This document shows, piece by piece, positions 33,875 through 37,564 of a stretch of 64,000 nucleotides of DNA (its first letter is position 1; each line of letters opens with the position of its first letter). Under the pieces are notes generated by a model. It did no database searches. It saw nothing but the letters and a program-made list of their open reading frames with translations, and was not told where the DNA came from. The stretch lies in assembly GCF_057098645.1 (NCBI RefSeq), contig NZ_CM169472.1; one strand, 5' to 3'. Position numbers and translations under genes: made by a program.

Positions 33875-34219
33875 TTAACTGGCTTCGCCAAATAAACCAT
33901 TCAAATAACGTTCAAGCGCAACACGCGAACTAAAGCCATGCGGGATACCGTAATGCTCGTGTCGCTCGCCTGCTAAATAGAGCGGAAATTGTTGATAATG
34001 ATCGCAAGTTTTAATATCGGAAGCGGGTTCAGCCAGTGTCGAACTACGTTCTTTTAATGTTGGATGAATTACCAGTGCGGTACGTCCCATTCGCGCTTCG
34101 CGATTAACATAGACATAATTTTCCCCACGGCGGTAACCATACGCTTTCTGGGTTACCACATCGACAGTAAAACCGACTTTTTCAAGTACGCGCGCCACCT
34201 CGTCTGGTCGTAAATACAT
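33875..34219 (-). CDS. ygaC: Uncharacterised protein YgaC
   Basis: 114-aa ORF, context match. Confidence 0.8.
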
Positions 34220-34370
34220 ATTTGATCCTCGTTATTATCAACCGCGGGCCTACCTTACCTGATTGCGCATTCACAACGCTTTCAGAAAAGTCCATAAAGC
34301 CGCGATGAACCTCAGTTAAGAAAATTATGGTCTACACTGAAAATTACATCGAATTCTAATGGGGGATCAT

Positions 34371-34700
34371 ATGTTTAACCGACCGAACCGCAACGACGTT
34401 GATGATGGCGTGCAGGATATCCAGAATGATGTCAATCAATTAGCTGACAGCCTCGAATCTGTATTGAAGTCCTGGGGCAGCGACGCCAAAGGGGAAGCTG
34501 AAGCCGCACGCAGTAAAGCTCAGGCATTGCTGAAAGAAACCAGGGCGCGAATGCATGGTCGTACTCGCGTCCAGCAAGCCGCACGCGATGCCGTTGGCTG
34601 CGCGGATTCTTTTGTTCGTGAAAGACCCTGGTGTAGCGTGGGTACAGCAGCTGCGGTAGGTATTTTTATCGGTGCGTTGTTGAGCATGCGTAAATCGTAG
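34371..34700 (+). CDS. ygaM: ElaB/YqjD-family membrane-anchored protein YgaM
   Basis: ORF track 34359..34700 trimmed to MFNRPNRNDVDD start; C-terminal transmembrane anchor. Confidence 0.8.
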   Translation: MFNRPNRNDVDDGVQDIQNDVNQLADSLESVLKSWGSDAKGEAEAARSKAQALLKETRARMHGRTRVQQAARDAVGCADSFVRERPWCSVGTAAAVGIFIGALLSMRKS

Positions 34701-34849
34701 TGAGACGATGACAAGCAGTAGTCTGACTTCTGAAAAGTACTCAGTGCGTCAACGCCTTGTCCGCCTACAGGCCTGAAAAACATAGCGCATCAGGGGATTT
34801 TGCCCTAGTCACCAGTCTTATAGGACCCCGAAGCCTGGCTTCGGGGTTA

Positions 34850-36184
34850 TTAATTTAAAGCACTGCGCAATTGCTGTGCTACCTGTCGCGCCATACTTTC
34901 GCTAACGATATTCGTAAACGAGAGCAATAATCCTCCGTCCTCGCTTGAGCGGATACGCCAGTCGCTAAGTGCCTGTACGGCAAGACCAGCAGCATTGGCT
35001 TTATGCACGAATGTCACGTCATTACCTGCTAGTTTGATCACCATCTGGATACCGCCTTTTTGCGGCACAACCTGAAATCCCTGCTGCGTAAGTGCCTGCT
35101 CAATCCACTGCCGTCGCTGGGCATAATGCTGGCGCATTTTCTTCAGATGCCGCCAGAAATGCCCCTCACGGATGAAATCTGCCAGTGTGTTCTGCCACAG
35201 TACGGGTACAGCACATGGTTCCAGTGACGCCTGCTGCCGGAATTGCGAAATCTGCTCCACCGGCACCACCAGCCACGCACAGCGCAATGCAGGAAATAGC
35301 GCTTTGCTGAATGTTCCGGCATAAATCACCCGCTGCGGCGCGTCGAGACTTTTTAGTGCCGGTAACGGCTTACCGTGATAGCGAAACTCACTGTCGTAAT
35401 CATCTTCAATAATCCATGCCTGACTACGCTCTGCCCATTCCAGTATCTGATACCTACGCGCTAAAGAGAGTGCCACACCCAGCGGGCTTTGGTGTGCCGG
35501 AGTAATCAGGGCAAAACGCGCATCAGGATAATTTTGTATTCCGCTTGTGACATCCAGTCCGTTGTCATCAACCGGCACAGGTAAAATTTCCACACCGTGG
35601 CGAGTGACAATCGGGCGAATCAGCGGTAAGCCGGGATCTTCCATCCACATCCCGTCTCCCGGTTGCGCCAGAGCGTGCAGAATTAAAGCCATTGAGGCCG
35701 CATAACCGTGAGTGATAAAGACCTGCTCTGGCTGACAATCAATCCCACGTGAAACGCGTAAATAATCAACAATAGCCTCGCGCAAGGCCGCCTCGCCGCA
35801 GACATCGCCTAATGCCAAATCAAAACGCGTCTGGGTACGCAGACGGCGGCCCATCACCCGCACCCACAATTCACGCGGAAAAAGATCAAGTGCAGGTAGC
35901 CCCATCTGAAAAGGCAGCGGCTGCTGACTTTCACCAGCAAAAGCCACGACATCCACAGCAGACTGTTGCGGATGTATCTGCTCACTGACAAAGGTACCCG
36001 CCTGTCCCCGCCTGACCAGCCATCCCTGCGCCACCAGCTCAGCATAAGCATTTTCGACAGTGGATCGAGAGACACCCAGCTCCTGCGACCAGGTACGGCT
36101 CGAGGGTAGCCTTGCGCCAGGTTTCAGCGCTCCTTGCTCGATAGCCGTTTTTAACTGACGGGCGATATCCTGATAACGTGGCAT
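34850..36184 (-). CDS. MocR/GabR-type regulator (GntR HTH fused to an aminotransferase-like PLP domain)
   Basis: 444-aa ORF; N-terminal GntR-type HTH followed by a long aminotransferase-fold domain; divergent from the AhpD-like gene. Confidence 0.7.
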   Translation of the reverse strand: MPRYQDIARQLKTAIEQGALKPGARLPSSRTWSQELGVSRSTVENAYAELVAQGWLVRRGQAGTFVSEQIHPQQSAVDVVAFAGESQQPLPFQMGLPALDLFPRELWVRVMGRRLRTQTRFDLALGDVCGEAALREAIVDYLRVSRGIDCQPEQVFITHGYAASMALILHALAQPGDGMWMEDPGLPLIRPIVTRHGVEILPVPVDDNGLDVTSGIQNYPDARFALITPAHQSPLGVALSLARRYQILEWAERSQAWIIEDDYDSEFRYHGKPLPALKSLDAPQRVIYAGTFSKALFPALRCAWLVVPVEQISQFRQQASLEPCAVPVLWQNTLADFIREGHFWRHLKKMRQHYAQRRQWIEQALTQQGFQVVPQKGGIQMVIKLAGNDVTFVHKANAAGLAVQALSDWRIRSSEDGGLLLSFTNIVSESMARQVAQQLRSALN

Positions 36185-36271
36185 ATGGTCTGCTTTTTTA
36201 GGTAATTTATGGCTCTCTTTAGCAGTCCATTATAGTGCTACATTGCGGGCGTTAATAAGAGGAGAAACTTT

Positions 36272-36703
36272 ATGACTACATTACGTCAGCCTTACTACGA
36301 ACTTAGCCCGGCAGTGTATAACGCACTGGTGCAGGCCAAAACGGCACTGGAAAATAGCACGCTGGATACCACGTTGATGGAGTTAATTTATTTGCGCGTC
36401 TCGCAAATCAACGGCTGCGCATTTTGTCTGGAGATGCACAGCAAAGCATTGCGCAAATCCGGTGTGCCACAACACAAACTGGACGCCCTGGCAGGCTGGC
36501 GCGTAAGCCATCATTTTGATGAACGCGAGCGAGCGGCGCTGGCATGGGCGGAATCAGTGACCGATATTGCCAGAACCCATGCGGAAGACGAGGTTTATCA
36601 GCCTTTGCTTGAGCATTTCAGCGCAGCAGAAATCAGCGACTTAACGTTTGCCATCGGGCTGATGAATTGTTTTAACCGTCTGGCCGTTTCCATGCGGATG
36701 TAA
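36272..36703 (+). CDS. Carboxymuconolactone decarboxylase/AhpD-like family protein
   Basis: 143-aa ORF with the CxxC-containing AhpD-core-like motif (QINGCAFCLEMH). Confidence 0.65.
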   Translation: MTTLRQPYYELSPAVYNALVQAKTALENSTLDTTLMELIYLRVSQINGCAFCLEMHSKALRKSGVPQHKLDALAGWRVSHHFDERERAALAWAESVTDIARTHAEDEVYQPLLEHFSAAEISDLTFAIGLMNCFNRLAVSMRM

Positions 36704-36709
36704 TTTGCT

Positions 36710-36738
36710 GTTGCCGGGTATGCGCCCGGCAAAAAAAC
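36710..36738 (+). terminator. Rho-independent terminator after the AhpD-like gene
   Basis: GCCGGGTATGCGCCCGGC hairpin followed by an A/T run. Confidence 0.5.
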
Positions 36739-36911
36739 ACAAAATCCCCTACCCCGTTGAGCCACTCACCGGTGGCGTAATCAATCTAAAATTCCCATAT
36801 CTTGTGTGGTTGAATCTTTTTTCAACTACATCTAGTATCTCTGTATCAACAGAGAGACAACCCGACGCGTATCATCGCGCCGTATCTTCATTTTAAGCGG
36901 AAATACGAATC

Positions 36912-37157
36912 ATGCGCATTACTATTTACACTCGTAACGATTGCGTTCAGTGCCACGCCACCAAACGGGCGATGGAAAACCGGGGCTTTGATTTTGAAAT
37001 GATTAATGTCGATCGCGTTCCTGAAGCGGCAGAAGCGTTGCGTGCTCAGGGCTTTCGTCAGTTGCCGGTAGTGATTGCTGGCGATCTTAGCTGGTCTGGT
37101 TTCCGTCCGGACATGATTAACCGTCTGCATCCAGCGCCACACGCGGCCAGTGCATGA
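36912..37157 (+). CDS. nrdH: Glutaredoxin-like protein NrdH
   Basis: 81-aa ORF with CVQC redox motif; first gene of nrdHIEF. Confidence 0.95.
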
Positions 37158-37564
37158 GCCAGCTCGTCTACTTCTCCAGCAGCTCCGAAAACACGCAGCG
37201 TTTTATCGAACGTTTAGGTCTGCCCGCGGTGCGCATCCCGCTCAATGAGCGGGAACGGATTCAGGTAGACGAGCCTTACATCCTGATCGTGCCCTCTTAC
37301 GGCGGCGGCGGTACGGCTGGCGCGGTGCCACGACAGGTAATTCGCTTTTTAAACAACGAGCATAACCGGGCATTGCTGCGCGGCGTTATTGCTTCGGGTA
37401 ATCGCAACTTTGGTGAGGCGTATGGCCGCGCCGGAGATGTGATTGCCCGGAAATGCGGCGTGCCGTGGCTGTACCGTTTTGAACTCATGGGTACGCAAAG
37501 CGATATCGAAAACGTTCGTAAAGGAGTAACCGAATTTTGGCAACGACAACCGCAGAACGCCTGA
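37154..37564 (+). CDS. nrdI: Flavodoxin-like protein NrdI
   Basis: 136-aa ORF overlapping nrdH stop. Confidence 0.95.

What the first reader, a model, noticed from the sequence alone, without database searches (positions are those of the whole stretch)
34850..36703. Divergent MocR-type regulator and AhpD-like gene inserted between ygaM and nrdH
Seen: a 444-aa GntR-HTH plus aminotransferase-fold regulator on the minus strand and a divergently transcribed 143-aa AhpD/carboxymuconolactone-decarboxylase-like gene, followed by a terminator just upstream of nrdH. Established: in K-12, as I recall, nrdH follows ygaM directly; MocR regulators usually control an adjacent divergent gene in response to a PLP-bound ligand. 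Inference: a self-contained sensor-effector islet, possibly for detoxifying a peroxide or reactive metabolite; its position next to the stress-induced nrdHIEF operon may be relevant.
Basis: partly seen in the sequence, partly recalled or inferred. Interest (0 to 1): 0.35.

Follow-up and report, generated by a model that had tools for sequence, protein, structure and literature searches.

The report
Ancestral MocR regulator and AhpD-like gene pair
This is an ordinary regulator-plus-target gene pair, a PLP-type MocR transcription factor facing a small thiol (CxxC) AhpD-like enzyme gene; enteric bacteria inherited it at this spot and E. coli K-12 lost it by deletion, so it is not an insertion.

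Summary
A 444-aa GntR-HTH plus aminotransferase-fold (MocR-type) regulator lies at 34850-36184 (-). A 143-aa CMD/AhpD-like CxxCxxxH protein lies at 36272-36703 (+). They sit between ygaM and nrdH, 87 bp apart. K-12-type genomes lack exactly this segment (window 34847-36703).

The direction of the event is the reverse of the title. The same ygaM-[regulator/CMD]-nrdHI layout occurs in E. albertii, Salmonella, Kluyvera, Cedecea, Shimwellia, Pluralibacter and Rahnella. In Citrobacter the pair sits between ygaC and nrdH, without ygaM. The pair is therefore ancestral and K-12 carries a deletion. Among 5426 complete E. coli genomes, 1276 keep the pair, 111 have a 589-bp deletion in the regulator, and about 4040 lack both genes.

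The intergenic region holds a 46-bp three-box operator (ATGGTCTG, T-tract, ATGGCTCT, inverted CAGTCCAT). Its spacing is invariant out to Pseudomonas and Burkholderia relatives, and it overlaps two divergent -10 hexamers. The layout matches that of the Bacillus clausii PdxR operator.

Orthologues (STM2803, CKO_04020) were already listed in 2016 as a predicted MocR regulog targeting COG2128. The "terminator" is a hairpin without a U-tract. NCBI's "pdxR" name is probably too specific. Low interest.

The parts
34824..34848 (+). ygaM terminator hairpin (GACCCCGAAGCCTGGCTTCGGGG + T-rich tail). It is shared by genomes with and without the pair, and the left edge of the K-12-type deletion lies just after it (34847).
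34850..36184 (-). MocR-type transcription factor gene, 444 aa (PGAP names: 'PLP-dependent aminotransferase family protein' or 'pdxR')
   Evidence: dN/dS 0.06-0.12
35987..36175 (-). GntR-type winged helix-turn-helix domain (residues 4-66)
   Evidence: PF00392, 62 bits, cut-off 27
35000..35809 (-). Fold-type I aminotransferase-like effector domain (residues 126-395 matched). It contains DDYD 261-264, the PLP lysine K294 (codon 35303-35305) and R301, which align with D276-D279, K309 and R316 of B. clausii PdxR.
   Evidence: PdxR residue roles from PMC10450172
36185..36230 (.). 46-bp three-box operator: box 1 ATGGTCTG (36185-36192), T-tract CTTTTTT (36193-36199), box 2 ATGGCTCT (36209-36216, direct repeat, +24), box 3 CAGTCCAT (36223-36230, inverted copy of box 1)
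   Evidence: one match in 64 kb, 0.00 expected; one match per locus, directly upstream of the regulator gene, in 34 loci
36229..36236 (.). Overlapping divergent -10 hexamers: TATAGT (36231-36236, + strand, CMD gene) and TATAAT (reverse complement of 36229-36234, regulator gene). This stretch is nearly invariant across Enterobacteriaceae. The assignment is inferred; the promoter scan did not call it because the -35 hexamers are weak.
36260..36264 (+). Shine-Dalgarno AGGAG, 7 nt upstream of the CMD start codon
36272..36703 (+). CMD/AhpD-like gene, 143 aa. The catalytic motif C49-A-F-C52-L-E-M-H56 is at 36416-36439, with E37 upstream.
   Evidence: dN/dS 0.03-0.09
36712..36738 (+). GC-rich hairpin (TTGCCGGG / CCCGGCAA, 36712-36731) followed by A7. 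It is not a canonical intrinsic terminator. K-12-type genomes keep a remnant of its left arm.
34847..36703 (.). Segment missing in K-12-type E. coli (1857 bp), running from just after the ygaM terminator to the CMD stop codon
35597..36185 (.). 589-bp segment deleted in a second E. coli variant (111 genomes, e.g. GN4738). The regulator loses its start codon, its HTH and about 200 N-terminal residues, while the CMD gene is intact.

Best explanation
The locus is an ancestral enterobacterial divergon. One gene encodes a MocR-subfamily (GntR wHTH plus PLP-binding aminotransferase-fold) transcription factor. The other, transcribed divergently, encodes a PA0269-like CxxC thiol protein of the CMD/AhpD-like family.

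Shown:
- The domain make-up of both proteins, and conservation of the PLP-lysine and CxxCxxxH residues.
- Strong purifying selection on both genes.
- The same position between ygaM and nrdH in many genera.
- A 46-bp operator with two direct boxes and one inverted box at fixed spacing. It overlaps the regulator's start codon at one end and both candidate -10 hexamers at the other.
- K-12-type E. coli has a clean 1857-bp deletion of exactly these two genes.

Inferred:
- A regulator dimer sits on the operator and represses its own promoter, because the operator covers roughly -8 to +38 of that promoter.
- Depending on the state of its PLP pocket (PLP alone, or PLP plus an amino compound), it switches between the direct pair (boxes 1+2) and the inverted pair (boxes 1+3).
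- This switch turns on the CMD promoter, whose -35 is weak and coincides with box 2 (the operator spans about -58 to -13). GabR and PdxR behave this way at their divergent targets.
- The CMD protein then acts as a thiol-dependent reductase of an oxidant or electrophile. The substrate is unknown. Relatives co-express it with a GNAT acetyltransferase and an AzoR-like flavin reductase.
For: Domains and families.

Closest solved structures:
- Regulator: B. clausii PdxR 7PQ9 (E = 4.5e-64, 33% identity) and GabR 4N0B. K294, the DDYD motif and R301 align to the PLP-site residues (PMC10450172).
- CMD protein: PA0269 (2IJC/2O4D, E = 1e-30, 40% identity). E37, C49, C52 and H56 are conserved. PA0269 weakly reduces H2O2 in a thiol-dependent way (PMC3141380).

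Synteny: ygaM-regulator/CMD-nrdHI in loci L004, L008-L019, L021, L037 and L045, and in Salmonella L085. Citrobacter L005-L007 have the pair between ygaC and nrdH.

Operator: the boxes are invariant columns in a 17-species alignment whose other intergenic columns vary. The pattern occurs once in the window against 0.00 expected. It occurs once per locus, directly upstream of the regulator, in 34 loci. These include Pseudomonas, Collimonas and Moraxellaceae loci that were not inspected when the pattern was written.

Linkage: 61 of 79 loci have a CMD homologue within 4 kb, in divergent or co-directional arrangement.

Selection: dN/dS is 0.03-0.12.

Deletion: the junction and the hairpin remnant in K-12-type genomes, a constant 936-938-bp span across all 29 sampled empty-site genomes, and normal GC content.

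Prior prediction: the 'Spro_3719 - Enterobacteriales' regulog (STM2803, CKO_04020, Ent638_0497, KPN_03002, ECA2654) targets COG2128, and COG2128 appears in 53 MocR regulons (PMC5320631 supplement).

Partner genes in relatives: GNAT plus Flavodoxin_2.
Against: - No experiment exists for this pair in any enterobacterium. The effector, the direction of control and the enzyme's substrate are all inferred.
- Box 3 lies in the promoter spacer and abuts the -10, which would equally suit a plain repressor.
- Both promoters have poor -35 hexamers and were not called by the consensus scan, and no transcription start sites are known.
- The proton-relay Tyr50 of PA0269 is Phe51 here.
- PA0269's measured peroxidase activity is weak, so peroxide may not be the real substrate.
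- Most E. coli do without the pair, so its contribution to fitness is small or niche-specific.
Confidence: 0.72

Rival explanations
1. One reading: a horizontally acquired islet was inserted between ygaM and nrdH in this lineage.
For: The pair is absent from about 74% of complete E. coli genomes, including K-12-type strains. The regulator alleles within E. coli are unusually divergent, with dS 0.30-0.53.
Against: The pair sits at the same locus, in the same orientation, in E. albertii, Salmonella, Kluyvera, Pseudocitrobacter, Pseudescherichia, Cedecea, Shimwellia, Pluralibacter and Rahnella, and next to nrdH in Citrobacter. Protein identities fall with phylogenetic distance (90%, then 76%, then 62-70%, then 47%). 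GC is 0.52-0.54, like the flanks. The boundaries carry no integrase, tRNA, direct repeats or IS element. K-12-type genomes retain a remnant of the hairpin that follows the CMD gene.
Confidence: 0.04
2. It is a true PdxR, as PGAP names it: a PLP-sensing regulator of vitamin B6 biosynthesis or salvage, with the CMD gene as an accessory B6-related target.
For: NCBIfam NF052282 (PdxR equivalog) scores 411 bits against a cut-off of 320. The best solved relative is B. clausii PdxR. The operator layout of two direct boxes, one inverted box and an A/T tract within 46 bp mirrors the PdxR operator. The PLP-site residues are conserved.
Against: No pdx gene is adjacent; the only divergent target is a CMD gene. 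The operator pattern occurs once in the 64-kb window. The NF052282 cut-off is passed equally (394-424 bits) by Pseudomonas, Burkholderia and Rahnella relatives that head GNAT-azoreductase-CMD operons, and those relatives score about as well on the rhizopine MocR model. Suvorova and Rodionov place the orthologues in a function-unknown group separate from PdxR, PdxW and PdxQ, while C. koseri has distinct PdxR2 and PdxR3 genes. From established knowledge, E. coli makes PLP through PdxA/PdxJ and has no pdxST.
Confidence: 0.12
3. Same parts, opposite logic: the regulator is a simple repressor of both promoters and releases the DNA when its ligand binds. MocR-family repressors such as EnuR/EhuR and PtsJ work this way.
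For: Box 3 lies inside the CMD promoter spacer and touches the -10, and the operator overlaps both -10 hexamers. The CMD gene stays intact in the 111 genomes whose regulator is truncated, which is compatible with constitutive expression after loss of a repressor.
Against: The CMD -35 region is poor (ATGGCT, 3 of 6 matches) and coincides with box 2. This is the geometry of activator-dependent promoters such as gabT under GabR (established knowledge; PMC5320631 introduction). The truncation may simply be too recent for decay of the CMD gene to show.
Confidence: 0.3
4. The small gene encodes a genuine 4-carboxymuconolactone decarboxylase, or a classical AhpD partner of AhpC.
For: It is a member of Pfam CMD and has the AhpD core domain and CxxCxxxH motif.
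Against: The AhpD subfamily model TIGR00777 scores 30.7 bits against a cut-off of 192, and no PcaC model appears among the NCBIfam hits. There are no pca genes nearby. From established knowledge, E. coli AhpC is recycled by AhpF. The nearest solved relatives are the PA0269/Atu0492 class of 'hypothetical' hexameric AhpD-like proteins.
Confidence: 0.05

Closest known systems
'Spro_3719 - Enterobacteriales' MocR regulog of Suvorova & Rodionov 2016 (STM2803/STM2804 of Salmonella LT2, CKO_04020, Ent638_0497, KPN_03002, ECA2654, Spro_3719)
   Same: These are orthologous regulators, each predicted to control a single divergent COG2128 (AhpD/CMD) gene. Salmonella has them at the same ygaM-nrdH locus with the same three-box operator.
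   Different: That study used E. coli K-12, which lacks the pair, so the E. coli copy was not listed. The function there is 'unknown', and nothing has been tested experimentally.
PdxR-pdxST of Bacillus clausii (PDB 7PQ9; cryo-EM DNA complexes)
   Same: It is a MocR-family regulator (33% identity, E = 4.5e-64) with the PLP lysine, DDYD and Arg conserved. Its target is divergent, and its operator has two direct repeats and one inverted repeat with an A/T-rich bendable tract within about 46-48 bp.
   Different: Its target is the PLP synthase operon, whereas here the target is a CMD/AhpD-like gene. The box sequence differs. PLP as the sole effector is not established here.
GabR-gabTD of Bacillus subtilis (PDB 4N0B)
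   Same: It is a MocR-family regulator (E = 3.6e-58). Its divergon has an operator overlapping the target's -35 and the regulator's own -10/+1, giving autorepression plus effector-dependent activation (background in PMC5320631).
   Different: The GabR model scores 264 bits against a cut-off of 600 (not a GabR). GabR uses two direct repeats only, and its effector is PLP plus GABA.
PA0268-PA0269 of Pseudomonas aeruginosa (PA0269 structures 2IJC, 2O4D)
   Same: It is a MocR regulator paired with a COG2128 protein. PA0269 is 40% identical over 141 residues and has the same E/C/C/H relay residues. It shows weak thiol-dependent H2O2 reduction (PMC3141380).
   Different: It belongs to a different orthologous group of regulators in the 2016 classification. 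PA0269 has Tyr50 where this protein has Phe51. The PA0268 regulon also includes a cupin gene.
Mycobacterium tuberculosis AhpD
   Same: It shares the CxxCxxxH active-site motif and the all-helical AhpD-like fold family.
   Different: The AhpD subfamily model is not met (30.7 against 192 bits). AhpD works with AhpC and lipoamide-linked reductants, and no such partner is indicated here.

Membership tests
MocR subfamily of GntR-family regulators | N-terminal GntR-type winged HTH | tested here: met
   PF00392 at residues 4-66, 62 bits against a cut-off of 27
MocR subfamily of GntR-family regulators | C-terminal fold-type I aminotransferase-like domain | tested here: met
   PF00155 at residues 126-395, 91 bits against 19.7; full-length alignment to PdxR 7PQ9 and GabR 4N0B
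MocR subfamily of GntR-family regulators | Conserved PLP-binding lysine and pocket residues | tested here: met
   K294, D261-D264 (DDYD) and R301 align with K309, D276-D279 and R316 of PdxR (residue roles from PMC10450172)
MocR subfamily of GntR-family regulators | Binds PLP, and binds repeated operator boxes as a dimer | not testable with these tools
   Only indirect evidence: a conserved three-box operator at fixed spacing
PdxR (MocR-like pyridoxine biosynthesis regulator, NF052282) | Profile score above the curated cut-off | tested here: met
   411 bits against 320. The model is equally passed by relatives that head GNAT-azoreductase-CMD operons, so it is not discriminating.
PdxR (MocR-like pyridoxine biosynthesis regulator, NF052282) | Controls an adjacent pdxST, pdxK or other B6 gene | tested here: not met
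   The neighbours are the CMD gene, ygaM and nrdH. The operator occurs once in the 64 kb. A whole-genome regulon scan was not possible.
GabR / rhizopine MocR / PtsJ / EhuR equivalogs | Profile score above the curated cut-off | tested here: not met
   264 against 600, 366 against 650, 129 against 573, and 169 against 480 bits respectively
CMD / AhpD-like family (PF02627, TIGR00778) | CMD domain and AhpD core domain | tested here: met
   PF02627 75.9 bits against 23; TIGR00778 56.1 bits against 27.8
CMD / AhpD-like family (PF02627, TIGR00778) | CxxCxxxH catalytic motif with an upstream Glu | tested here: met
   E37, C49, C52 and H56 align to E36, C48, C51 and H55 of PA0269; Tyr50 is replaced by Phe51 (PMC3141380)
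AhpD proper (TIGR00777) | Subfamily profile score | tested here: not met
   30.7 bits against a cut-off of 191.95
4-carboxymuconolactone decarboxylase (PcaC) | PcaC profile match and pca gene context | tested here: not met
   No PcaC model among the NCBIfam hits at E <= 0.001; no pca genes nearby
Genomic islet acquired by insertion | Absence from outgroups at the locus, atypical composition, mobility genes or target-site repeats | tested here: not met
   The pair is present at the locus in about 20 other taxa. GC is 0.52-0.54. The junctions carry no repeats or mobility genes.
Intrinsic (Rho-independent) terminator downstream of the CMD gene | GC-rich hairpin followed by a U-tract | tested here: not met
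   The hairpin is present (-16.9 kcal/mol) but is followed by A7, and the scan did not call it. Pseudocitrobacter orthologues do have the T-run.

The most novel reading that the evidence does not exclude
The module could be a PLP-dependent sensor for a specific host- or diet-derived reactive amine, aldehyde or oxidant. The two deeply divergent regulator alleles in E. coli (dS about 0.44 across the regulator gene, against 0.09 in the adjacent target) would then reflect different ligand tuning. Losing the module (K-12-type genomes), or losing only the regulator (the 589-bp deletion lineage), would measurably change oxidant or electrophile tolerance. Because no canonical terminator follows the CMD gene, induction might also read through into nrdHIEF, coupling this sensor to the stress-induced ribonucleotide reductase.
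Probability: 0.08. Interest if true: 0.45.

Novelty: already known. Interest (0 to 1): 0.17.

Why it matters
The practical value is mostly corrective.
- The ygaM-nrdH difference between K-12 and O157/B2-type E. coli is a deletion in the K-12 type, not an acquired islet.
- The RefSeq label "pdxR" on this gene is probably an over-extension of a permissive model.
- The 46-bp three-box operator gives a ready, testable binding site for a MocR group that is widespread (Enterobacteriaceae to Burkholderiales) and still has no known ligand.

E. coli also offers three natural genotypes: intact, regulator-truncated and fully deleted. These could be used to find the phenotype. None of this overturns current understanding.

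Tried and rejected
- Literature searches for MocR with carboxymuconolactone decarboxylase or AhpD found nothing. Searches on locus tags ECs3534/ECs3535, Z3973, STM2803 and KPN_03002 found no functional study. STM2804 appears only as a neutral marker-insertion site 'with no known function' (PMC3723669).
- z3974, pulled down from O157 lysate with Tpx and WrbA (PMC3191033), might be this CMD protein, but I could not verify the tag mapping. Only ECs3533 = ygaM is established, so this was not used as evidence.
- I suspected that the extra about 121 bp after the ygaM stop codon (34703-34823) was a REP element. It is rejected as a repeat: there is no second copy in the window, and it is single-copy in the 364 genomes that have it.
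- The Rfam scan of 34000-37500 gave no hit at E <= 1.
- The generic repeat finder on the spacer returned only short chance-level repeats and missed the boxes. Cross-species alignment was what revealed them.
- The consensus promoter scan called no promoter in the spacer, so the promoter assignments remain inference.
Full report
**1. What is in the sequence**

The window is E. coli chromosome around stpA-alaE-ygaC-ygaM ... nrdHIEF. Across the pair it is 99.9% identical to O145:H28 RM12761.

- ORF 34850..36184 (-) encodes 444 aa. It has a GntR winged-HTH at residues 4-66 and a class I/II aminotransferase domain at 126-395.
- ORF 36272..36703 (+) encodes 143 aa. It has a CMD domain and the AhpD core domain, and the sequence GCAFCLEMH, which is a CxxCxxxH motif.
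- The two start codons are 87 bp apart (36185-36271), as stated. RefSeq annotates both genes at these coordinates in matching genomes.

The feature called a terminator is different from what was described. It is a stable hairpin (core 36712-36731; -16.9 kcal/mol; z = -2.7) followed by AAAAAAA, not by a T-run. The terminator scan does not call it on either strand. Orthologous positions in other genera always carry some GC-rich hairpin, and in Pseudocitrobacter it has a proper T-run. The E. coli version is therefore at best a weak or degenerate terminator.

**2. Insertion or deletion**

K-12-type genomes (L001) have ygaM followed by nrdH after 247 bp. Alignment puts the difference at window 34847-36703. 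That runs from directly after the ygaM terminator hairpin to the CMD stop codon.

Downstream of the junction, K-12 reads TTTCTTTTTGCCTGGT. The window reads TTTGCTGTTGCCGGGT after the CMD stop codon. K-12 thus keeps a remnant of the left arm of the hairpin that follows the CMD gene.

A scan of one genome per species with the regulator protein returned 79 loci. I mapped AlaE, YgaC, YgaM, the CMD protein, NrdH and NrdI onto them.
- The layout ygaM - regulator (one strand) / CMD (other strand) - nrdH - nrdI recurs in E. albertii, Kluyvera, Pseudocitrobacter, Pseudescherichia, Cedecea, Shimwellia, Pluralibacter, several Enterobacter species and Rahnella.
- In Citrobacter the pair lies between ygaC and nrdH, and ygaM is missing.
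- A Salmonella contig shows stpA-alaE-ygaC-ygaM-regulator/CMD-nrdHIEF with identical gene lengths.
- Regulator identity declines with taxonomic distance: 90% in E. albertii, 74-76% in Citrobacter, 61-70% in other Enterobacteriaceae, 47% in Rahnella.
- GC content is 0.52-0.54, like the flanks. No mobility gene, tRNA or target-site repeat marks the edges.

The pair is therefore ancestral at this site, and the K-12 type is a deletion.

Among 5426 complete E. coli genomes:
- 1276 carry the whole pair.
- 111 carry a 589-bp deletion (window 35597-36185). It removes the regulator's start codon, its HTH and about 200 N-terminal residues, and leaves the CMD gene intact.
- The remaining roughly 4040 lack both genes. 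All 29 sampled empty-site genomes show the same 936-938-bp span.

**3. Are the genes functional**

Both are intact and under strong purifying selection. dN/dS is 0.06-0.12 for the regulator and 0.03-0.09 for the CMD gene, in comparisons within E. coli, with E. albertii and with Citrobacter.

The regulator aligns end to end with B. clausii PdxR (7PQ9, E = 4.5e-64, 33% identity) and with GabR (4N0B). Its K294, DDYD 261-264 and R301 align with PdxR K309 (the PLP Schiff-base lysine), D276-D279 and R316. The residue roles come from PMC10450172.

The CMD protein is 40% identical to P. aeruginosa PA0269 (2IJC/2O4D, E = 1e-30). It keeps E37, C49, C52 and H56 of the proposed proton relay, and Tyr50 of PA0269 is Phe51 here. 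PA0269 reduces H2O2 weakly and in a thiol-dependent way (PMC3141380).

**4. The operator**

I aligned the spacer from 17 species. Three boxes are invariant or nearly so, while the sequence between them drifts.
- Box 1: ATGGTCTG (36185-36192).
- A conserved T-tract (36193-36199).
- Box 2: ATGGCTCT (36209-16), a direct repeat 24 bp after box 1.
- Box 3: CAGTCCAT (36223-36230), the inverted copy of box 1. It is a perfect inverted copy, CAGACCAT, in Salmonella, in Citrobacter sp. FP75 and in several other genera.

The spacing of 24 + 22 bp does not vary. A pattern encoding only the core letters and the spacing (ATGRNCY-N18-TGGCNNT-N10-CCAT) gave these results:
- It matches once in the 64-kb window, against 0.00 expected from shuffles.
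- It matches once per locus, always directly upstream of the regulator gene, in 34 of 84 held loci.
- The matching loci include Pseudomonas (L024, L026, L032), Collimonas (L048) and a Moraxellaceae MAG (L077), none of which I had looked at before writing the pattern.
- Because the pattern was derived from the enterobacterial sequences, those matches are circular. The distant ones are the real test.

Box 1 abuts or overlaps the regulator's start codon in every species.

Immediately after box 3 lies CCATTATAGTGCTAC, nearly invariant in Enterobacteriaceae. It reads TATAGT on the + strand (36231-36236) and TATAAT on the - strand (36229-36234).

I interpret these as overlapping divergent -10 hexamers. 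This is inference: both -35 regions are weak, the consensus scan made no call, and no start sites are known. On this reading the operator spans about -58 to -13 of the CMD promoter, with box 2 at the -35 position. It spans about -8 to +38 of the regulator's own promoter.

This is the geometry described for GabR: autorepression plus effector-dependent activation of the divergent gene (background in PMC5320631). The box layout of two direct repeats, one inverted repeat and an A/T bendable tract within about 46-48 bp is what has been shown for B. clausii PdxR. There, apo and PLP-bound protein prefer different box pairs (PMC10450172).

**5. What the module probably does**

The regulator-CMD link is not peculiar to enterics. 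In 61 of 79 loci a CMD homologue lies within 4 kb of the regulator's relative:
- 35 are divergent and adjacent.
- 14 are divergent with other genes between.
- 7 are immediately downstream on the same strand.
- 5 are in other arrangements (4 farther downstream on the same strand, 1 other).

Where other genes intervene, they encode a GNAT acetyltransferase and a Flavodoxin_2 (AzoR/AcpD-like) FMN reductase.

This agrees with the published catalogue. COG2128 is a target in 53 predicted MocR regulons. The 'Spro_3719' group, which contains STM2803, CKO_04020, Ent638_0497, KPN_03002, ECA2654 and Spro_3719, is listed with COG2128 as its target in Enterobacteriales, and with AcpD, GNAT, Bcp and cupin genes elsewhere (PMC5320631 supplement).

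I therefore commit to a PLP-dependent regulator that autorepresses and switches on a thiol-based reductase directed against an oxidant or electrophile. My confidence in each step:
- About 0.9 that this is a regulator-target divergon acting through the 46-bp operator.
- About 0.55 that control of the CMD gene is activation rather than pure repression.
- About 0.5 that the enzyme's physiological substrate is a peroxide-type oxidant.

**6. Names and membership**

PGAP calls the gene either 'PLP-dependent aminotransferase family protein' or 'pdxR'. The PdxR model NF052282 is indeed passed (411 bits against 320). Several observations make the 'pdxR' name doubtful.
- The same model is passed at 394-424 bits by Pseudomonas, Burkholderia and Rahnella relatives that head GNAT-azoreductase-CMD operons. 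These score about as well on the rhizopine-MocR model.
- The defining biological feature, control of pdxST, pdxK or other B6 genes, is not seen here.
- The 2016 classification keeps these orthologues apart from PdxR, PdxW and PdxQ, and C. koseri has separate PdxR2 and PdxR3 genes.

I file the regulator as a MocR-subfamily member of the 'Spro_3719' orthologous group, not as PdxR. The small protein is a CMD/AhpD-like family member of the PA0269 class. It is not AhpD proper (TIGR00777 scores 30.7 bits against 192) and not PcaC.

**7. Link to nrdHIEF**

I found nothing that ties the pair functionally to nrdHIEF.
- Distant relatives keep the pair away from nrd genes.
- Three quarters of E. coli lost the pair and kept nrdHIEF.
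- The nrdH promoter-proximal 120 bp is identical with and without the pair.

Read-through past the U-less hairpin remains possible and is untested.

**8. Verdict**

- The 'insertion' reading is wrong, because the K-12 state is a deletion.
- The 'self-contained sensor-effector' reading is supported.
- The system was already catalogued in silico through its Salmonella, Citrobacter and Klebsiella orthologues, and it is annotated in RefSeq.

It is an ordinary accessory, or more accurately eroding core, divergon. Interest is low.

Noticed in passing
window 34486-36184: The 3' end of ygaM and the whole regulator gene are only 78-96% identical per 100 bp to the other E. coli allele class (L003). The operator, the CMD gene and nrdH are 93-100% identical. 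Regulator dS between E. coli alleles is 0.30-0.53, against 0.09-0.25 for the CMD gene. This looks like an old or introgressed allele block with a breakpoint exactly at the operator, and dN/dS stays near 0.1.
   Followed up: partly
window 34703-34823: About 121 bp between the ygaM stop codon and its terminator replaces the 27-bp sequence found in K-12 and in the 92%-identity allele class. It looked REP-like. However, it is single-copy, has no second copy in the window, and occurs in only 364 of 5426 genomes, in the O157:H7/O145 group including EDL933.
   Followed up: yes
window 35597-36185 (variant seen in L083): 111 complete E. coli genomes (e.g. the urine isolate GN4738) carry a 589-bp deletion that removes the regulator's start codon, its HTH and the first base of box 1. 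The CMD gene is left intact, and PGAP flags the remnant as a pseudogene. These are natural regulator-null strains.
   Followed up: partly
window 36733-36800: The distal part of the nrdH upstream region differs strongly between K-12-type genomes and genomes carrying the pair. The difference includes the CCCATATCTTGTGT versus GCTATATATTGTGT element, which other genera conserve as CTATATATTGT. From memory this resembles an NrdR box; I did not verify that.
   Followed up: no
window 34850-36184; L024, L037, L051, L085: NCBIfam NF052282 ('PdxR', cut-off 320 bits) is passed at about 390-425 bits by regulators whose targets are CMD, GNAT and azoreductase-like genes. RefSeq records name the same E. coli gene either 'pdxR' or 'PLP-dependent aminotransferase family protein'. 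The gene name has probably been over-propagated.
   Followed up: partly
L005, L006, L007 (Citrobacter): In these Citrobacter loci the regulator gene is followed directly by ygaC, and no YgaM homologue was found between them.
   Followed up: no
window 36272-36703: A JBC 2011 study (PMC3191033) recovered 'z3974' from E. coli O157 lysate on a salicylidene-acylhydrazide affinity matrix, together with the redox proteins Tpx and WrbA. z3974 may be this CMD protein, but the tag mapping could not be verified with the tools. Only ECs3533 = ygaM is established.
   Followed up: partly
L035, L038, L040, L050, L057, L058, L065: In Salinicola, Paraburkholderia, Caballeronia, Bradyrhizobium, Rhizobium and a Rhodospirillaceae MAG, the CMD homologue lies immediately downstream of the regulator on the same strand instead of divergently. 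The linkage therefore survives rearrangement.
   Followed up: no
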